Assembly: GCF_055900595.2 (NCBI RefSeq)
Contig: NZ_CM148325.1
Strand: one strand, 5' to 3'
Length of the DNA stretch: 64,000 nucleotides
The notes under the pieces: model-generated
The model's database searches: none
Seen by the model: only the letters and a program-made list of their open reading frames with translations
Told to the model about the DNA's origin: nothing
Made by a program: the position numbers and the translations under genes
Shown: positions 20,592-61,490 of the stretch, in pieces
Position numbering within the stretch: the stretch's first letter is position 1
How the letters are laid out: every line of letters starts with the position of its first letter

Positions 20592-22838
20592 ATGCTCACT
20601 CGCCTGCGCGAAATAGTCGAAAAGGTAGCCAGCGCACCACGCCTGAATGAGGCGTTAAATATTCTGGTTACCGACATCTGTCTTGCGATGGATACCGAGG
20701 TCTGTTCGGTCTACCTGGCCGATCATGACCGACGTTGTTACTACCTGATGGCGACCCGGGGGCTGAAAAAACCACGCGGTCGCACTGTAACGCTTGCGTT
20801 TGATGAAGGGATCGTCGGCCTGGTTGGCAGGCTGGCGGAACCGATAAACCTTGCAGATGCGCAAAAGCACCCCAGCTTCAAATACATCCCCTCCGTAAAA
20901 GAAGAACGTTTCCGCGCGTTTTTAGGCGTACCAATTATTCAACGTCGCCAGTTGCTTGGTGTACTGGTGGTACAGCAACGAGAGTTGCGCCAGTATGACG
21001 AAAGTGAAGAATCCTTCCTGGTGACGCTTGCCACCCAGATGGCAGCGATTCTTTCTCAGTCGCAGTTGACTGCCTTGTTTGGGCAATATCGCCAGACGCG
21101 AATCCGTGCATTACCGGCAGCGCCCGGTGTAGCAATTGCCGAAGGCTGGCAGGATGCCACGTTACCTTTAATGGAACAGGTGTATCAGGCATCAACGCTG
21201 GATCCGGCTCTGGAACGCGAACGACTGACCGGGGCGCTGGAAGAAGCGGCAAACGAGTTTCGCCGCTACAGCAAACGCTTTGCCGCCGGTGCACAAAAAG
21301 AAACGGCGGCTATTTTCGATCTTTACTCGCACCTGCTTTCGGACACCCGGCTGCGTCGCGAATTGTTTGCCGAGGTTGATAAAGGCTCGGTGGCAGAGTG
21401 GGCGGTAAAAACGGTCATTGAAAAATTTGCCGAACAGTTTGCCGCGCTAAGCGATAACTATCTCAAAGAGCGGGCTGGCGATTTACGTGCGCTGGGTCAG
21501 CGATTGCTGTTTCATCTTGATGACGCTAATCAAGGGCCGAACGCCTGGCCGGAACGTTTCATTCTGGTGGCAGATGAACTGTCAGCGACAACGCTTGCTG
21601 AGCTGCCCCAGGATCGCTTAGTCGGTGTTGTCGTGCGAGATGGCGCAGCCAACTCCCATGCTGCGATCATGGTACGTGCGCTGGGGATTCCTACCGTAAT
21701 GGGCGCGGATATTCAGCCTTCTGTGCTGCATCGTCGGACGTTGATCGTCGATGGTTATCGCGGTGAATTGCTGGTCGATCCGGAGCCGGTACTGCTGCAA
21801 GAATATCAGCGGCTAATTAGTGAAGAGATTGAGCTTAGCCGTCTGGCGGAAGATGACGTCAATTTACCCGCCCAGTTAAAAAGCGGCGAGCGCATTAAAG
21901 TCATGCTCAATGCCGGTTTAAGCCCGGAACATGAACAAAAACTGGGCAGCCGTATTGATGGCATAGGACTTTATCGCACTGAAATCCCATTCATGTTGCA
22001 AAGTGGTTTTCCGTCGGAAGAAGAACAGGTGGCGCAGTATCAGGGGATGCTGCAAATGTTCAATGATAAACCCGTCACCTTGCGTACGCTGGATGTCGGA
22101 GCAGATAAGCAGCTGCCTTACATGCCGATCAGCGAAGAGAATCCATGCCTGGGTTGGCGTGGGATTCGCATTACGCTCGATCAGCCGGAGATCTTCTTGA
22201 TTCAGGTGCGGGCGATGCTGCGTGCTAATGCCGCTACGGGCAACCTGAATATTCTGTTGCCGATGGTCACCAGCCTCGATGAAGTTGACGAAGCACGCCG
22301 CCTGATTGAACGTGCCGGACGTGAAGTCGAGGAGATGATCGGTTACGAAATTCCCAAACCACGTATCGGCATCATGCTTGAAGTGCCGTCAATGGTATTT
22401 ATGCTGCCGCATCTGGCAAAGCGGGTCGATTTTATCTCTGTTGGCACCAACGATCTGACTCAATACATCCTGGCCGTTGATCGCAACAATACCCGGGTGG
22501 CGAACATTTATGACAGTCTTCATCCTGCAATGTTACGAGCTCTGGCGATGATCGCTCGGGAAGCGGAAATACATGGCATCGATCTCCGTTTGTGCGGTGA
22601 AATGGCAGGCGATCCCATGTGCGTGGCAATCCTCATTGGGCTTGGCTATCGCCATCTGTCTATGAACGGACGGTCTGTTGCGCGCGTAAAATACCTGCTG
22701 CGGCGCATTGATTTTGCCGAAGCAGAAAACCTTGCGCAGCGCAGTCTGGAAGCGCAACTGGCGACCGAAGTTCGCCATCAGGTTGCGGCCTTTATGGAGC
22801 GTCGCGGCATGGGCGGGTTGATTCGCGGAGGGTTATAG
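20592..22838 (+). CDS. ptsP: PEP-protein phosphotransferase EI-Ntr (GAF domain-containing)
   Basis: 748 aa; N-terminal GAF domain and C-terminal PEP-utilizing Enzyme I domain. Confidence 0.94.
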   Translation: MLTRLREIVEKVASAPRLNEALNILVTDICLAMDTEVCSVYLADHDRRCYYLMATRGLKKPRGRTVTLAFDEGIVGLVGRLAEPINLADAQKHPSFKYIPSVKEERFRAFLGVPIIQRRQLLGVLVVQQRELRQYDESEESFLVTLATQMAAILSQSQLTALFGQYRQTRIRALPAAPGVAIAEGWQDATLPLMEQVYQASTLDPALERERLTGALEEAANEFRRYSKRFAAGAQKETAAIFDLYSHLLSDTRLRRELFAEVDKGSVAEWAVKTVIEKFAEQFAALSDNYLKERAGDLRALGQRLLFHLDDANQGPNAWPERFILVADELSATTLAELPQDRLVGVVVRDGAANSHAAIMVRALGIPTVMGADIQPSVLHRRTLIVDGYRGELLVDPEPVLLQEYQRLISEEIELSRLAEDDVNLPAQLKSGERIKVMLNAGLSPEHEQKLGSRIDGIGLYRTEIPFMLQSGFPSEEEQVAQYQGMLQMFNDKPVTLRTLDVGADKQLPYMPISEENPCLGWRGIRITLDQPEIFLIQVRAMLRANAATGNLNILLPMVTSLDEVDEARRLIERAGREVEEMIGYEIPKPRIGIMLEVPSMVFMLPHLAKRVDFISVGTNDLTQYILAVDRNNTRVANIYDSLHPAMLRALAMIAREAEIHGIDLRLCGEMAGDPMCVAILIGLGYRHLSMNGRSVARVKYLLRRIDFAEAENLAQRSLEAQLATEVRHQVAAFMERRGMGGLIRGGL

Positions 22839-54431: not shown

Positions 54432-55163
54432 TCAGGCTGTTACCAAAGAAGCCGCAACCTGGCGCTCATCAGAAATAATGTGCGTGACCTCATCCAGATG
54501 CCCGATGCGGGCTTCCCCTGAACGATTAAATTTACTTTTATCAATCAATAACAACGATTGCGCGGCACGTTTTAATAGCATCGATTTGTAATCAGCGTTG
54601 ATGGCATTGGAGTCCCACAGTGCACCGCTGCTATCGATCCCTTCACAAGAAAAAATAAACAGATCGATTTCCAGCGATTTAAGTTGGGAAATCAGCGAGG
54701 GATTGACGTAACAGCCATATTTGCGCTCAAGTGTGCCGCCGGAACTGATCAGTTGAATGCGTTCACGTTTACCGAGTTCATGGCAAATCGGATGGCTATT
54801 GGTGAAGACCTGAATGTCGATGTCAGGCAACTGGCGTGCCAGATACCAGCAAGTTGAACTGGCGTCTAAGGCTATCACCATCCCTTCTTCAATCCACGCG
54901 AGCGCTTCGCGCGCGATATCTGCTTTATGCGCATAATGGCTTTTCAGCCGGATGTGAAAGGGATCGCCACTGTCTTGATTTTGACGGTGGATATATTTAG
55001 CGCGCCCATGATTGCGCAGAATTTTACCCTGCGTCTGTAATTCATTGAGATCGCGACGAATGGTTTCTTTACTGACCTTTAGCTGTTCAGAGAGAGCTTC
55101 CGTGGTCAGGCTGGTATGGTTCAGCAGCAGGTCGACTATCGCTTGCTGGCGTGCCGCTTTCAT
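54432..55163 (-). CDS. fucR: L-fucose operon activator (DeoR family)
   Basis: 243 aa from ATG at 55163 (MKAARQQAIVDLLLNHTSLTTEALSEQLKVSKETIRRDL = DeoR HTH). Confidence 0.93.
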   Translation of the reverse strand: MKAARQQAIVDLLLNHTSLTTEALSEQLKVSKETIRRDLNELQTQGKILRNHGRAKYIHRQNQDSGDPFHIRLKSHYAHKADIAREALAWIEEGMVIALDASSTCWYLARQLPDIDIQVFTNSHPICHELGKRERIQLISSGGTLERKYGCYVNPSLISQLKSLEIDLFIFSCEGIDSSGALWDSNAINADYKSMLLKRAAQSLLLIDKSKFNRSGEARIGHLDEVTHIISDERQVAASLVTA

Positions 55164-57171: not shown

Positions 57172-58947
57172 TTAACGCTTGTACAACGGGCCGTAGTTCT
57201 GGCAAGCGCGGTAATCCTGGCCTTCAATATCCATGCCGTGCGCGGCCCAGGCAGAAGGACGATACACTTTGGTCTCTTCAACGTTATGCATACATACCGG
57301 GATACGCAGCATGGAGGCGAGAGTGATAAAGTCAGCGCCAACGTGGCCGATGGTCAGAACCCCGTGGTTAGCGCCCCAGTTCGCCATTACCGAGTACACA
57401 TCCGTAAACGGCCCTTTACCGGTGAGGCGCGGTGCAAACCAGGTGGTTGGCCAGGTTGAGTTGGTGCGTTTGTTGAGGATGTCATGCACATCCTTCGGTA
57501 ACTCAACGCTCCAGCCTTCCGCGATTTGCAGTACCGGTCCCAGGCCTTTGATGATGTTGACACGGGTCATGGTGAACGGGACACCGCCTTCAGTAAGGAA
57601 GCGGGAAGAGTAACCACCGCCACGGAAATATTCGTGGATAGCCGGGCACCATTCGGTCGCGGCGAGGCAAGCGTCAGCCTCTTGCTGAGAGATTTCCCAG
57701 TGCGGCTTCATCGTCGGTTTACCTTCGCTGTCGCGTTGTTTACAGGATCCGTCCAGCGCAGCAGAACCGGAGTTGATCAAGTGGATGATGCCGTGTTCTG
57801 CCAGTCCGTCCAGTTTATGCCCCGTTACTCGCTCAATTGCTTCTGGTGACCAGTAGGTACGCACATCGGCAAATACCTGAGCGGTGCCGGTGAGTTGGTG
57901 ACCCATTAGCATTGCCACGCCGTTAAGACTGTCGTTTTCGGTCGCCACGACAAAGGGTTCGCGTACGCCATTCCAGTCAAATGAACTGTTGAGGATCGCT
58001 TCGGCGGTGTCGCCATTTGGATATTGATCGGTCCAGTGACGTTGCCCCTGGAAGCCCGCAGCGATGGCGTTGTAACCAAGAGATTCTTCCACGCGACCAA
58101 TATCGGCCAGTTTGCTGTTGCCTTGCATCATGTCGCGGATACACATCGTCATCAGTAAACTTTCGCGTAGAACTGCGCGGCTTTGCTCGGCATTGCGTTG
58201 ATACTGTTTGTTATTTTCATCTTCGCCATAGCGGAAGTTTTTATCAGCCCAGGCCAGCGCCATTTCCAGTTCTGCTTCGTCGTAAATCTTCTGATCAATA
58301 CGGCGACGCAGTTCGGTCATATCCACCGCCTGGACTTTCATTCCCAGCCAGGATTCAAAGAAGTTGTGGTCAACGATGGAACCGGCGATCCCCATCGAAA
58401 CGCCGCCCAGCGACAGATAGCTTTTACCTTTCATACTGGCGACTGCCAAACCGGCGCGGGCAAAGCGCAGCAGTTTTTCTTCAACGTCGGCAGGAATCGA
58501 TGTGTCATCGGCATCCTGAACGTCATGACCGTAAATGGAGAATGCCGGGATACCTTTCTGACTGTGAGCTGCCAGAGCTGCGGCGAGGTAAACAGCGCCT
58601 GGGCGTTCAGTGCCGTTAAAGCCCCAAATGGCTTTCGGGCGGGTAGGGTCCATGTCAATGGTTTCACTGCCATAGCACCAGCAAGGCGTTACCGTAATGG
58701 TGAGGCCTACATTCTGGCTGCTGAATTTTTCTTCGCAAGCAGCAGCTTCAGCCATACCCGCGATACAGGTATCGGAAATGACACACTCGACGGCAGCTCC
58801 GCAGGCATGGCGCAGTTTCTCGGTCAGCAGTGCGGCCGTAGCTTTCGCCATATTCATTGTTTGTTCTTCAAGCGACTCACGAACACCCATGCGACGACCG
58901 TCAATAACCGGGCGGATACCAATTTTCGGTAAGCTGATTTTTTTCAT
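57172..58947 (-). CDS. fucI: L-fucose isomerase
   Basis: 591 aa; FucI sequence ([19 protein letters not shown]...). Confidence 0.96.
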
Positions 58948-58979
58948 TACAGATTCCTCACTTTATTCGGAAAATATGT

Positions 58980-60296
58980 TCAGTTAGTTGCCGTTTGAGA
59001 ACGGAAACGGGCAAAGATAAAGATGACCGCGAAGCAGAGTGCGGGGATCAGTTCGGCTGTGGGGATGTTGCCCGCCGCGTCACTGACAAAACCCATGACC
59101 GGAGTGACAATACCGCCGCCAATAATGGTCATAACGATGAAGGACGAGCCGTATTTGGTGTCCTGGCCGAGATTCTTTATGCCCAGCGAGAAGATTGTTG
59201 GGTACTGAATCGACATAAAGGCGCTGCATAAAGTCAGGGCTATTAAACCCACATGACCGCCAGCGAAGGCTGAGATCAGGCACAGTGCCATAGCGATTAA
59301 TGCGTAGGCTGCCAGGACTTTGTGTGGTGCGAAGCGACTGATGAGCCAGGTGCCGGTGAAACGACCAATAAAGAAGCACACCATGGTTCCGGTTAAATAG
59401 TTAGCGGCAAAGCCTGCGGTCATACCTGGAATTTCTTCTACAGCGTAGCGAATCAAATAGCTCCAGCAGGCCGTTTGCGCGCCGACGTAGCAGAATTGCG
59501 CTAATACTGCCCAGCGCCAGTGGCGAATACGCGCCAGGCGAGAAAGCGATGCGGAGAACGATCCTTGTTTGGCGTCACTGTGATTATCACTCTGCAATGC
59601 CGGGAATTTCGTCAGCATGATCAGCAGGGCGACCAGTAACACGATAGCCACGATGATCATATAAGGTGTCTGTACCGATAATACCAGGCTGTGTTTATAC
59701 GCACTCAATTGCTCTGGTGACATTTTATCGAGAACGTCTTGCGATTGATGTGGCACGTTAGACAAAATAAGACTTTGCCCAAAGACAACCGCAATAATTG
59801 CGCCAAATGAGTTAAATGTTTGCGCAAGATTTAAGCGAAAGTGACCGCTGCTTTCTGGTCCTAATACCGTAACGAAAGGGTTTGCGGCAGTTTCCAGACA
59901 ACCTAATCCGGCTGCAATAATAAATAGGCCAATTAAAAATAAGGTGTAGTTCATTATTTCTGCGGCGGGCCAGAATAATGCAGCGCCGAAGGCATATAAA
60001 AACAATCCGGTAATAATCCCTGCTTTATAACTGAGTTTTTTCATCAATATCCCGGCAGGGATTGGGATAATGAAATAACCAAAGTAAAAGGCCGATTGGA
60101 TCAGACCTGCCTGAAAGTTTGTCAGCGTAAAAGCCTGCTGAAATTGAGGCAATAAAATGTCGTTAAGGTTATTGGCTACCGCCCAAAGAAAAAACAGTGA
60201 GCACAGCAGCGCGAATGGAATAATGTAACTTCTGCTTTGCCCTGCATCTTTATCTACCGCACGGTAACTCTGCGTTTGTATTGATGTGTTTCCCAT
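58980..60296 (-). CDS. fucP: L-fucose:H+ symporter (MFS)
   Basis: 438 aa; 12-TM MFS permease. Confidence 0.95.
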   Translation of the reverse strand: MGNTSIQTQSYRAVDKDAGQSRSYIIPFALLCSLFFLWAVANNLNDILLPQFQQAFTLTNFQAGLIQSAFYFGYFIIPIPAGILMKKLSYKAGIITGLFLYAFGAALFWPAAEIMNYTLFLIGLFIIAAGLGCLETAANPFVTVLGPESSGHFRLNLAQTFNSFGAIIAVVFGQSLILSNVPHQSQDVLDKMSPEQLSAYKHSLVLSVQTPYMIIVAIVLLVALLIMLTKFPALQSDNHSDAKQGSFSASLSRLARIRHWRWAVLAQFCYVGAQTACWSYLIRYAVEEIPGMTAGFAANYLTGTMVCFFIGRFTGTWLISRFAPHKVLAAYALIAMALCLISAFAGGHVGLIALTLCSAFMSIQYPTIFSLGIKNLGQDTKYGSSFIVMTIIGGGIVTPVMGFVSDAAGNIPTAELIPALCFAVIFIFARFRSQTATN

Positions 60297-60842
60297 AGCA
60301 TCCTCTTAGGTTCAGAAGCTTAAGCACGTAATCGGTTATGTTTTCAAAAGTGCAAAACCAGCGAGTTCGGGCTTCATATCAGTGAATATTTGCCTGTCTG
60401 AAATGAACTCATGGATTCATTTTCAAATAAAAAACGCTCTGTAATATGACGACGGTCACACTTATTAGCTGGGAGGTGACTTTATGTGACTACCATCACT
60501 TTAATAATCGAAATTTCATGCCCGTTTCAGAAAATAAATCATAAAAAACACAAACCAGATGACCGTATTAATTGTTTATGCCGAAAACGGGCATTTCTGG
60601 CGAGGGGAAATGGAAAAATGACCGTTTTGATAAATATTTTTAAGAGCGGTCATTTTTAACGGGGTTATAAAAAGAGAACTTGCAGTTATTTACTGTGATT
60701 AGTTGAGCCAGGTCACAAAATATAAGCTTGTGAATTTCTTTCCGGTTAATCAGGAAGAAGATGGTGGGTAATTAAACGGCTAATTCAATAGTGTGAAAGG
60801 AACAACATTATTGCCCTGTTTTGAATCAGAGAGAGGTAGCTA
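60297..60842. promoter_or_regulatory. Divergent fucPIK / fucAO control region
   Basis: 546-bp AT-rich intergenic segment between divergent operons; contains several inverted-repeat motifs (atgcccgtttc ... gaaacgggcat; atgaccg ... cggtcat). Confidence 0.6.
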
Positions 60843-61490
60843 ATGGAACGAAATAAACTTGCTCGTCAGATTATTGACACTTGCCTGGAAATGACCCGCC
60901 TGGGACTGAATCAGGGAACAGCGGGTAACGTCAGTGTACGTTATCAGGATGGGATGCTGATTACGCCTACAGGCATTCCGTATGAAAAACTGACGGAGTC
61001 GCATATTGTCTTTATTGATGGCAACGGTAAACATGAGGAAGGAAAGCTTCCCTCAAGCGAATGGCGTTTCCATATGGCGGCCTATCAAAGCAGACCGGAT
61101 GCCAACGCGGTTGTTCACAATCATGCCGTTCATTGCACGGCAGTTTCCATTCTTAACCGACCTATCCCCGCTATTCACTACATGATTGCGGCGGCTGGCG
61201 GTAATTCTATTCCTTGCGCGCCTTATGCGACCTTTGGAACTCGGGAACTTTCTGAACATGTTGCGCTGGCTCTCAAAAACCGTAAGGCAACTTTGTTACA
61301 ACATCATGGGCTTATCGCTTGTGAGGTGAATCTGGAGAAAGCGTTATGGCTGGCGCATGAAGTTGAAGTGCTGGCGCAGCTTTACCTGACGACCCTGGCG
61401 ATTACGGACCCGGTGCCAGTGCTGAGCGATGAAGAGATTGCCGTAGTGCTGGAGAAATTCAAAACCTACGGGTTACGGATTGAAGAGTAA
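60843..61490 (+). CDS. fucA: L-fuculose-phosphate aldolase (class II)
   Basis: 215 aa; class II aldolase fold with His-rich metal site (VHNHAVHCTA). Confidence 0.95.
   Translation: MERNKLARQIIDTCLEMTRLGLNQGTAGNVSVRYQDGMLITPTGIPYEKLTESHIVFIDGNGKHEEGKLPSSEWRFHMAAYQSRPDANAVVHNHAVHCTAVSILNRPIPAIHYMIAAAGGNSIPCAPYATFGTRELSEHVALALKNRKATLLQHHGLIACEVNLEKALWLAHEVEVLAQLYLTTLAITDPVPVLSDEEIAVVLEKFKTYGLRIEE

What the first reader, a model, noticed from the sequence alone, without database searches (positions are those of the whole stretch)
60297..60842. fuc divergent control region contains several long-range inverted repeats
Beyond the expected CRP and FucR sites, the 546-bp spacer carries inverted motifs such as atgcccgtttc (about 60518) and gaaacgggcat (about 60585), and repeated atgaccg / cggtcat units. 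They may be FucR operator arrays or DNA-looping elements.
Basis: seen in the sequence. Interest (0 to 1): 0.3.

Follow-up and report, generated by a model that had tools for sequence, protein, structure and literature searches.

The report
FucR activator boxes between fucP and fucA
The repeated and inverted motifs are binding boxes for FucR, the fucose-regulon activator, in the well-studied E. coli fucP–fucA control region, so the finding is ordinary, although their paired layout is more strictly conserved than published descriptions suggest.

Summary
Window 60297-60842 is the E. coli fucP/fucA divergent intergenic region. It carries five copies of one motif, AAACGGKCAT, within 137 bp: S1 60518-28(-), S2 60559-69(-), S3 60584-94(+), S4 60618-28(-), S5 60644-54(+). 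A single 10-nt inverted repeat is not unusual here; the recurrence of the motif is.

These are not "beyond" the FucR sites. They are the FucR sites. S3 and S5 are OFucR2 and OFucR3, validated by mutagenesis in K-12 (Zhang et al. 2024).

Comparison of 80 Enterobacterales fucA loci shows the boxes form converging pairs, TGNCCG-N22/23-CGGNCA, with invariant spacing. S2/S3 sits in a rigid fucP-side module with S1 and two CRP sites. S4/S5 sits in a rigid fucA-side module with a third CRP site. A linker of variable length separates the two modules.

I found no evidence for a hairpin or for phase-locked looping.

One small point may be new. The literature I could read counts four FucR sites, yet five canonical boxes exist, and S4 scores best. 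However, a published K-12 truncation lacking S4 keeps about 70% of induced activity.

Verdict: a known regulatory element, low interest.

The parts
60518..60528 (-). FucR box S1. Read on the - strand it is GAAACGGGCAT.
   Evidence: It lies a fixed 34/35 bp from CRP site OCrp1 and 40-42 bp from S2 in 39 genomes. It is identical in 8 E. coli. It ranks 8th in a scan of the whole window with a PWM (position weight matrix) trained on non-Escherichia boxes.
60543..60553 (+). S1': a conserved A-rich element (AAAAAACACAA here, AAAACCCACAG in most genera). It sits exactly where a converging partner of S1 would lie. It may be a degenerate FucR half-site; this is unproven.
   Evidence: In Photorhabdus the same position holds a canonical box, AATTCGGTCAT. 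In Enterobacteriaceae the CGG core is lost but the element stays conserved.
60559..60569 (-). FucR box S2 (AATACGGTCAT on the - strand). It is the left arm of the composite operator 60559-60594.
   Evidence: (D4). S2-S3 spacing is 28 bp in 38 of 39 genomes. PWM rank 4.
60584..60594 (+). FucR box S3 = published OFucR2 (15-mer 60581-60595). The window has CGGGCAT; K-12 has CGGTCAT.
   Evidence: sequence and mutagenesis in K-12, about 30% loss. (T/G difference). (G in 6 of 8 sampled E. coli). PWM rank 3.
60595..60617 (.). Variable linker between the fucP-side and fucA-side modules.
   Evidence: Its length runs from 20 to 53 bp across genera. Of 26 positions that vary among 8 E. coli, 11 fall in 60596-60612.
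60618..60628 (-). FucR box S4 (AAAACGGTCAT on the - strand). It is the left arm of the composite operator 60618-60653. No paper I could read gives it as a sequence.
   Evidence: It is the best PWM hit in the whole 64-kb window, score 21.4. S4-S5 spacing is 28/29 bp in all 32 genomes where both were found. It is also present in a stand-alone fucAO promoter in Serratia sp. DD3. Against a necessary role: the K-12 truncation at -206 removes it and keeps about 70% of activity.
60644..60654 (+). FucR box S5 = published OFucR3 (15-mer 60640-60654). It is essential for fucose induction of PfucAO in K-12.
   Evidence: mutation gives a >50-fold loss. The 15-mer is identical to K-12. It lies a fixed 56/57 bp from CRP site OCrp2.
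60442..60463 (.). CRP site OCrp0 (taatatgacgacggtcacactt), part of the fucPIK promoter module. It contains a chance CGGTCAc.
   Evidence: The K-12 sequence is given in PMC11894529. There is one spacer difference at 60452. Conserved across genera.
60482..60503 (.). CRP site OCrp1 (TGTGActaccaTCAC core at 60485-60499).
   Evidence: The literature places OCrp1 just downstream of the IS5 site. No paper I read prints its sequence, so the coordinates are my own placement on the TGTGA-N6-TCAC core. That core is conserved and lies 39/40 bp from OCrp0 and 34/35 bp from S1.
60699..60720 (.). CRP site OCrp2 (ttagttgaGccaggtcacaaaa), the main CRP site of PfucAO.
   Evidence: Sequence and mutagenesis in PMC11011485. 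There is one spacer difference from K-12 at 60707. Conserved across genera.
60770..60780 (+). PfucAO -10 element (aattaa, 60770-75) and transcription start C at 60780 (-63 from the fucA ATG).
   Evidence: 5'RACE in K-12, PMC11011485. The positions were mapped onto the window from the ungapped alignment.
60789..60810 (.). CRP site OCrp3 (tagtgtgaaaggaacaacatta), in the fucA 5'UTR.
   Evidence: PMC11011485. Identical to K-12.
54432..55163 (-). fucR, the DeoR-family activator that reads the boxes.
   Evidence: Annotated as 'L-fucose operon activator' in the strain that matches the 546-bp query 100%. Pfam HTH_DeoR 7e-23 and DeoRC 3e-45.

Best explanation
The inverted and repeated motifs are an array of binding boxes for FucR. 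FucR is the DeoR-family activator of the fucose regulon, and the literature reports that fuculose-1-phosphate activates it. The box consensus is about TTAAAACGGKCATTTT.

Five canonical boxes lie within 137 bp between the CRP sites of the two divergent promoters. They are arranged as two converging pairs, ATGMCCGTTT-N16-AAACGGKCAT (S2/S3 and S4/S5), plus a lone box S1. S1 has a degenerate partner position, S1'.

Shown elsewhere: in K-12, S5 is essential and S3 auxiliary for fucose induction of PfucAO, acting together with CRP at OCrp2.

Shown here: the layout falls into two rigid modules.
- fucP side: OCrp0, OCrp1, S1, S2, S3.
- fucA side: S4, S5, OCrp2.
- A linker of free length and sequence joins them.

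Inferred:
- Each converging pair is occupied by one FucR dimer, or by one side of a larger oligomer. That would give cooperative binding.
- Each module presents FucR at a fixed distance and face to its CRP site. FucR could then help CRP bind or recruit RNA polymerase, as the Saier laboratory proposed for OFucR3 and OCrp2.
- S1 and S2/S3 do for PfucPIK what S4/S5 do for PfucAO.
For: Identity with validated operators:
- S5 matches OFucR3 15/15. S3 matches OFucR2 14/15, and the one difference sits at the T(G) position of the published consensus.
- The motif comes from an in-vitro FucR binding assay (Baumgart 2021, as cited).
- fucR itself is present in the window.

Enrichment: 0 of 5000 shuffles reach the observed box count, and the composite occurs only twice in 64 kb, both times here.

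PWM (position weight matrix) scan: with a matrix trained only on non-Escherichia boxes, 5 of the top 8 hits in the window are S1-S5.

Conservation:
- The orientation pattern (-,-,+,-,+) is seen from Escherichia to Yersinia, Hafnia, Buttiauxella and Edwardsiella.
- All 84 converging pairs span 34-35 bp, while distances between diverging boxes range from 12 to 66 bp.
- Inter-site distances are fixed to within 1 bp inside each module, apart from S1-S2 at 40-42 bp, against a 20-53 bp linker.
- 89 of 91 composites in 524 kb of fucA loci lie upstream of fucA.
- Serratia sp. DD3 has the S4/S5 pair, a 56-bp gap and a CRP site in front of fucAO, with no divergent fucP.

Within E. coli: the boxes are invariant in 8 strains except for the degenerate K position of S3.

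Consistent genetics: IS5 insertion between OCrp0 and OCrp1 silences fucPIK. That insertion separates the fucP promoter from every box.
Against: - No direct binding data were available to me for S1, S2 or S4. The literature calls OR0 and OR1 'putative'.
- The pair is not obligatory for fucAO. K-12 construct PAO.V6 starts at -206 (window 60637). It lacks both S3 and S4 and still keeps about 70% of induced activity, the same loss as the S3 point mutation alone.
- PAO.V5 (-270) lacks S1 and S2 and keeps full PfucAO activity. Their assignment to fucPIK therefore rests on inference.
- FucR's oligomeric state and DNA-bound geometry are unknown. No close solved structure exists.
- The two half-site centres lie 26-29 bp apart, an unusual reach for a simple dimer.
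- The fucP transcription start was not available in any text I could read. I place it from memory and sequence only.
Confidence: 0.85

Rival explanations
1. Orientation-specific single sites. Each 15-bp box is an independent FucR site that works only toward the promoter it faces. S1, S2 and S4 would serve fucPIK, and S3 and S5 would serve fucAO. The inverted arrangement would then be a by-product of divergent transcription, not a dimer operator.
For: - S5 alone, without S4, supports about 70% of PfucAO induction in K-12.
- The published work treats the sites as single 15-mers.
- The boxes facing fucA (S3, S5) are the two shown to act on fucAO.
Against: - This model does not explain why the converging spacing is fixed at 34-35 bp in all 84 pairs, while the S3-to-fucA-module distance floats by 33 bp.
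- S4 is kept next to S5 in a stand-alone fucAO promoter that has no fucP to serve.
- S3 travels rigidly with the fucP module, not with fucA.
Confidence: 0.2
2. Long-range DNA looping. An oligomeric FucR bridges distant boxes such as S1 with S3, or the S2/S3 unit with the S4/S5 unit. The loop would couple the two divergent promoters, as in DeoR, GlpR or AraC systems.
For: - From my own knowledge, DeoR-family proteins are commonly tetramers or octamers that loop DNA.
- Several operator units lie within 140 bp.
- S1 and S3 form a perfect 10-nt inverted repeat in this strain.
- S3 makes a small contribution to fucAO.
Against: - The linker between the two units varies from 20 to 53 bp, and it is the most polymorphic stretch within E. 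coli. Helical phasing between modules is therefore not conserved.
- The units are only about 59 bp apart, which is short for a loop.
- Removing S1 and S2 has no effect on PfucAO.
- A biosensor study fitted a Hill coefficient of 1 for the fucose response. This is weak, indirect evidence.
Confidence: 0.1
3. The inverted repeats are structural. They would form a cruciform in DNA or a hairpin in a transcript, or they are chance repeats in AT-rich DNA.
For: - Inverted arms of 10-25 nt exist (I1, I3, I8).
- The minimum-energy DNA fold pairs S1 with S3 and S4 with S5.
Against: - The fold is no better than shuffles: z = -1.39, and 22 of 200 shuffles fold at least as well.
- The degenerate position in the two arms does not covary: 42 of 84 pairs match against 36.4 expected.
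- There are no Rfam matches.
- The boxes lie upstream of the mapped fucA start at 60780 and upstream of the CRP sites of fucP, so they are probably not transcribed.
- Chance is excluded by shuffles and by cross-genus conservation.
Confidence: 0.02

Closest known systems
FucR operators OFucR2/OFucR3 (OR2/OR3) and putative OR0/OR1 of the E. coli K-12 fucPIK/fucAO intergenic region (Zhang et al., IJMS 2024, PMC11011485; NAR 2025, PMC11894529)
   Same: This is the same locus. It has the same 546-bp length with no indels. S5 is identical to OFucR3, and S3 equals OFucR2 apart from T->G at the degenerate position. The four CRP sites and the PfucAO start are the same.
   Different: The papers describe single 15-bp sites and count four of them. 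Here there are five canonical boxes plus one degenerate position, arranged as fixed-spacing converging pairs inside two rigid modules. S4 is not given as a sequence in any text I could read. The window strain also differs from K-12 at 18 positions, including loss of the IS5 target CTAG.
Operators of DeoR-family repressors in E. coli (GlpR, DeoR, UlaR); comparison from my own knowledge, not tested here
   Same: The protein family is the same: HTH_DeoR plus DeoRC domains. All use roughly 10-bp half-sites in inverted orientation, several operators per control region, and a sugar-phosphate effector.
   Different: FucR is an activator that works with CRP from far upstream, about -110 to -190. Its half-sites are separated by about 16 bp rather than abutting. 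There is no evidence here for phase-locked looping between operator units.
Divergent CRP-plus-specific-activator control regions such as malEp-malKp (MalT with CRP) or araC-araBAD; comparison from my own knowledge
   Same: All are compact intergenic regions. Several activator sites and several CRP sites jointly drive two divergent sugar operons.
   Different: The activator family and the site architecture differ. In the fuc region the two promoter modules look separable: the linker varies, and the fucAO module exists on its own in Serratia sp. DD3. This contrasts with a single shared nucleoprotein complex.

Membership tests
FucR operator (cis-element of the E. coli fucose regulon) | Matches the FucR binding consensus, with CGG and CA invariant: G(A)C(T)C(G)A(C)A(G)A(TC)A(T)CGGT(G)CAT(A)T(CG) | tested here: met
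   All five boxes carry CGG-K-CAT with an A-rich 5' flank. The consensus is quoted in PMC11011485. Five of the top 8 hits in the 64-kb window are these boxes, using a PWM (position weight matrix) trained on other genera.
FucR operator (cis-element of the E. coli fucose regulon) | Identity with operators validated by mutagenesis | tested here: met
   S5 matches OFucR3 15/15. S3 matches OFucR2 14/15, with the difference at the degenerate position. S1, S2 and S4 have no published mutagenesis that I could find.
FucR operator (cis-element of the E. coli fucose regulon) | Located in the control region of FucR-dependent operons, in a genome that encodes FucR | tested here: met
   The boxes lie between fucP and fucA. 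fucR is at 54432-55163, with HTH_DeoR and DeoRC domains.
FucR operator (cis-element of the E. coli fucose regulon) | Conserved in orthologous control regions (phylogenetic footprint) | tested here: met
   The boxes stand out as islands of conservation in a 21-species alignment. The five-box pattern and its spacings are found in 39 of 48 genomes by a strict core match. The boxes are invariant in 8 E. coli apart from the K position of S3.
FucR operator (cis-element of the E. coli fucose regulon) | Direct, effector-dependent binding of FucR protein to each box | not testable with these tools
   This needs EMSA, footprinting or ChIP. Only an in-vitro genomic binding assay is cited for OFucR2.
DNA-looping operator system (DeoR/GlpR/AraC type) | Distant operators kept in a conserved helical phase | tested here: not met
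   The linker between the two operator units varies from 20 to 53 bp, and it is the polymorphism hot spot within E. coli.
DNA-looping operator system (DeoR/GlpR/AraC type) | A regulator that is a tetramer or higher oligomer able to bridge two operators | not testable with these tools
   No close solved structure exists. The best DeoR-family match is the C-terminal domain in 7l6l, E = 0.16.
Structured nucleic acid (cruciform or RNA hairpin) | Folding energy beyond shuffled controls, and compensatory changes between the arms | tested here: not met
   z = -1.39. The arm positions do not covary: 42 of 84 against 36.4 expected. No Rfam family matches.

The most novel reading that the evidence does not exclude
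The functional FucR operator is not the published 15-bp single site. It is a split palindrome, ATGMCCGTTT-N16-AAACGGKCAT, about 36 bp long. The fuc control region holds three such units: S1/S1' (decayed in Enterobacteriaceae, intact in Photorhabdus), S2/S3 and S4/S5. They are organised as two separable promoter modules. The fifth box, S4, scores best and appears to be unreported. It would matter for FucR affinity or for sensitivity at low fucose rather than for maximal induction.
Probability: 0.45. Interest if true: 0.3.

Novelty: already known. Interest (0 to 1): 0.2.

Why it matters
The finding mainly confirms textbook-level regulation, so it has little general importance. It has modest value for people who work on the fuc system, for example on IS5-mediated activation, fucose biosensors or gut colonisation.
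- The comparative data give a full box map: five boxes rather than two or four.
- They provide a spacing rule for the boxes.
- They divide the region into two rigid modules.

From these follow concrete experiments. The map also warns that the K-12 sequence is atypical of natural E. coli at two points: the S3 allele and the IS5 target site.

Tried and rejected
- Consensus promoter and terminator scan of 60250-60900 found nothing. Both promoters depend on activators, so this says little.
- Rfam search of the region gave no match.
- Single-strand DNA folding was not better than shuffles.
- PDB sequence search with FucR, meant to infer dimer geometry on DNA, found no useful homologue.
- Literature searches for a described split-palindrome or half-site architecture of FucR found nothing relevant.
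- Podolny et al. 1999 (PMC94201) should give the fucP start site and CRP positions, but it is not held. The fucP start is therefore only inferred.
- The supplements of the NAR 2025 paper do not give the OR0/OR1 sequences. I could not tell which of S1, S2 and S4 are already listed.
- A strong lone PWM hit at 21406-21421 lies inside a 748-aa ORF and has no partner, so I treated it as chance.
- A cluster of ATGACCG/CGGTCAT heptamers inside fucP and fucI lacks the A-rich flank. The hits sit in mixed codon frames, so I treated them as a coding-sequence coincidence.

Full report
**What is there**

Window 60297-60842 is the 546-bp spacer between fucP (58980-60296, minus strand) and fucA (60843-61490, plus strand) of an Escherichia coli chromosome. 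fucI, fucK, fucU and fucR lie beyond fucP, and fucO lies beyond fucA. The spacer is present in 5024 of 5426 complete E. coli genomes, mostly at 95-99% identity. It aligns to K-12 MG1655 without gaps, with 18 substitutions.

**Checking the observation**

ATGCCCGTTTC is at 60518-28. The quoted partner is really AAAACGGGCAT at 60584-94, so the perfect inverted repeat is 10 nt, not 11. ATGACCG occurs at 60559 and 60618, and CGGTCAT at 60647.

A lone perfect 10-nt inverted repeat is not significant in this AT-rich DNA: 23% of shuffles have one. The significant feature is the recurrence of one motif.
- CGGKCAT occurs five times in 137 bp against 29 times in the remaining ~63.9 kb.
- None of 5000 dinucleotide shuffles of the spacer reaches the observed count of the CGGNCA core.
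- The composite TGNCCG-N22/23-CGGNCA occurs exactly twice in the 64-kb window, at 60560 and 60619.

**What the motif is**

Zhang et al. (IJMS 2024, PMC11011485) took the FucR motif from an in-vitro genomic binding assay (Baumgart 2021). In this consensus CGG and CA are invariant and the position between them is T or G. They defined two K-12 operators and tested them by mutagenesis.
- OFucR2 (ccgaaaaCGGtCAtt): mutation cut fucose-induced PfucAO activity by about 30%.
- OFucR3 (ttaagagCGGtCAtt): mutation cut it more than 50-fold.

In the window OFucR3 is 60640-54 and is identical to K-12. OFucR2 is 60581-95 and differs only by T->G at the degenerate position.

fucR is in the window at 54432-55163 and has HTH_DeoR and DeoRC domains. 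I label the five boxes as follows.
- S1: 60518-28, minus orientation
- S2: 60559-69, minus orientation
- S3: 60584-94, plus orientation; equals OFucR2
- S4: 60618-28, minus orientation
- S5: 60644-54, plus orientation; equals OFucR3

**Comparative evidence**

A scan of one genome per species returned 80 fucA loci from Enterobacterales. In 48 of them fucP is divergent from fucA, as it is here.

The five boxes keep the same order and orientation (-,-,+,-,+) in a wide range of genera. These include Escherichia, Salmonella, Citrobacter, Klebsiella, Raoultella, Kluyvera, Enterobacter, Yokenella, Hafnia, Buttiauxella, Yersinia and Edwardsiella. In a 21-species alignment the boxes and the CRP sites stand out as islands of identity in otherwise diverged sequence.

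Spacing is highly constrained. All 84 converging box pairs found within 60 bp of each other span 34 or 35 bp, whereas diverging neighbours lie 12-66 bp apart.

Distances measured in 39 genomes define two rigid blocks.
- Block 1: OCrp0, 39/40 bp, OCrp1, 34/35 bp, S1, 40-42 bp, S2, 28 bp, S3.
- Block 2: S4, 28/29 bp, S5, 56/57 bp, OCrp2.
- The S3-S4 linker between them ranges from 20 to 53 bp.

The same linker is the polymorphism hot spot inside E. coli. Of 26 positions that vary among 8 strains, 11 fall in 60596-60612. The five boxes show a single change, G/T at S3.

Across 524 kb of the 80 loci, 89 of 91 composites lie upstream of fucA.

Serratia sp. DD3 has fucAO without a divergent fucP. It still carries one perfect composite, AATGCCCGTTT-N16-AAACGGGCATT. 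A CRP-like site follows 56 bp later. The fucA-side block therefore exists as an independent unit, and S4 is kept even where there is no fucP to serve.

In Photorhabdus, S1 has its own canonical converging partner at the same 34-bp span. In Enterobacteriaceae that position holds a conserved but degenerate element, AAAACCCACAG (AAAAAACACAA at 60543-53 in the window).

**Alternatives to protein binding**
- Single-strand DNA folding of 60505-60665 is no better than shuffles, z = -1.39.
- The degenerate base in the two arms of a pair does not covary: 42 of 84 match against 36.4 expected. The arms are conserved as a sequence motif, not as complementary strands.
- Rfam finds nothing.
- The boxes lie upstream of the mapped PfucAO start, C at -63, which is window 60780.

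**Mechanism**

Shown in K-12 by others: FucR and CRP both activate PfucAO. S5 and OCrp2 are essential, and S3 and OCrp3 are auxiliary. IS5 insertion between OCrp0 and OCrp1 silences fucPIK. That insertion cuts the fucP promoter off from OCrp1 and from every FucR box.

Inferred here:
- Each converging pair is one FucR operator. Its spacer is AT-rich, 84% AT against 65% for the spacer region as a whole.
- Each operator is held at a fixed distance from a CRP site, so that FucR can assist CRP or RNA polymerase.
- The block S1 plus S2/S3 serves PfucPIK, and S4/S5 serves PfucAO.

There are important counter-evidence and gaps.
- The K-12 truncation PAO.V6 starts at -206 (window 60637). It lacks both S3 and S4 and keeps about 70% of induced activity. 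S4 is thus not needed for near-maximal induction at saturating fucose.
- PAO.V5 (-270) lacks S1 and S2 and is fully active. Their role at fucP is therefore only inferred.
- FucR's oligomeric state is unknown, and no usable solved homologue exists.
- The fucP start is my inference, about 60411. The fucP-strand sequence runs from 60424 down to 60419 and reads GAAAAT, a plausible -10 element. That start would put OCrp0 near -41.5. I also recall from Podolny et al. 1999 that a CRP AR3 mutant activates this promoter, but that paper is not held.

**Looping**

Nothing supports phase-locked looping between the two units, because the linker length is free. I cannot exclude bridging within a block, for example between S1 and S3, whose distance is fixed.

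**Comparison with what is known, and novelty**

The element is a known one. The NAR 2025 paper from the same laboratory speaks of "all four known binding sites": OR0 and OR1, putative, for fucPIKR, and OR2 and OR3 for fucAO. It gives sequences only for OR2 and OR3.

Five canonical boxes exist, so at least one is not in that count. With a position weight matrix (PWM) trained only on other genera, S4 is the best-scoring site in the whole window. I found no description of the converging-pair rule or of the two-module layout. I could not see the figures or the Baumgart data.

These are refinements of a known system, not a new kind of element.

**Verdict**

Novelty: already known. Interest is low, 0.2.

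Noticed in passing
window 60469-60472: In K-12 the IS5 insertion hot spot that activates fucAO is CTAG, at -374 to -371 from fucA. The window reads CTGG at that place. So do 5 of 6 other sampled natural E. coli; only K-12 and one strain identical to K-12 at every variable position carry CTAG. The classic IS5-mediated propanediol-positive mutation may therefore be favoured by a K-12-lineage allele. A TTAG lies 4 bp upstream and could be an alternative target.
   Followed up: partly
window 60591: The S3 (OFucR2) core is CGGGCAT in the window, in 5 of 6 other sampled E. coli, in E. albertii and in Escherichia sp. MOD1-EC7003. K-12's CGGTCAT is the minority allele in this small sample.
   Followed up: partly
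window 60402-60421: There is an inverted repeat AATGAA-N8-TTCATT (AATGAACTCATGGATTCATT). It is strongly conserved across Enterobacteriaceae and lies between OCrp0 and fucP. It overlaps the place where I infer the fucP -10 element and start. It is not the SrsR box, which is GCAAAACCAGC at 60352-62. Its function is unknown; it may simply be core-promoter conservation.
   Followed up: partly
window 60543-60553: A conserved A-rich element (AAAAAACACAA here, AAAACCCACAG in most genera) sits exactly where a converging partner of box S1 would be. In Photorhabdus that position holds a canonical FucR box. It could be a decayed or low-affinity half-site, or a site for another factor.
   Followed up: partly
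window 60743-60744: The window has CG where K-12 has TT, so TTGTTA becomes CGGTTA just upstream of the PfucAO -10 element. The C at 60743 is unique to the window among the 8 E. coli compared. Separately, the -35 element printed in PMC11011485 (TTGtgA at -96 to -91) does not match the sequence at those coordinates in K-12 or in the window. TTGTGA occurs at -115 to -110.
   Followed up: no
window 60596-60612: This 17-bp stretch between S3 and S4 holds 11 of the 26 positions that vary among 8 E. coli spacers. It is also the only segment whose length varies among genera.
   Followed up: yes
E. coli genome search; H20 NZ_CP035846.1: About 400 of 5426 complete E. coli genomes have no match to the fuc spacer. 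Strain TW10598 matches only its last 67 bp. This suggests deletions or rearrangements of the fuc control region in some lineages.
   Followed up: no
window 58314-59423: Six ATGACCG/CGGTCAT heptamers fall within 1.1 kb of fucI and fucP coding sequence. The heptamer is also over-represented in the whole window, 19 against 8.7 expected. The coding-region hits lack the A-rich flank of FucR boxes and sit in mixed codon frames, so they are probably a coding-sequence coincidence.
   Followed up: partly
window 21406-21421: A lone high-scoring FucR-like half-site, TAAAAACGGTCATTGA (PWM score 19.5), lies inside a 748-aa ORF (20592-22838). It has no converging partner and is probably chance.
   Followed up: partly
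L031 (NZ_SZPQ01000009.1) and L060: A contig labelled Martelella alba, an alphaproteobacterial name, carries an Enterobacterales-type fucP-fucA locus with the full box array and 89% FucA identity. This suggests a mislabelled or contaminated assembly. Separately, Serratia sp. DD3 has fucAO without a divergent fucP but with a stand-alone FucR pair plus a CRP site.
   Followed up: partly
window 60486-60659 (+): A 57-aa GTG ORF spans the FucR boxes. It overlaps conserved non-coding operator sequence, so it is most likely spurious.
   Followed up: no
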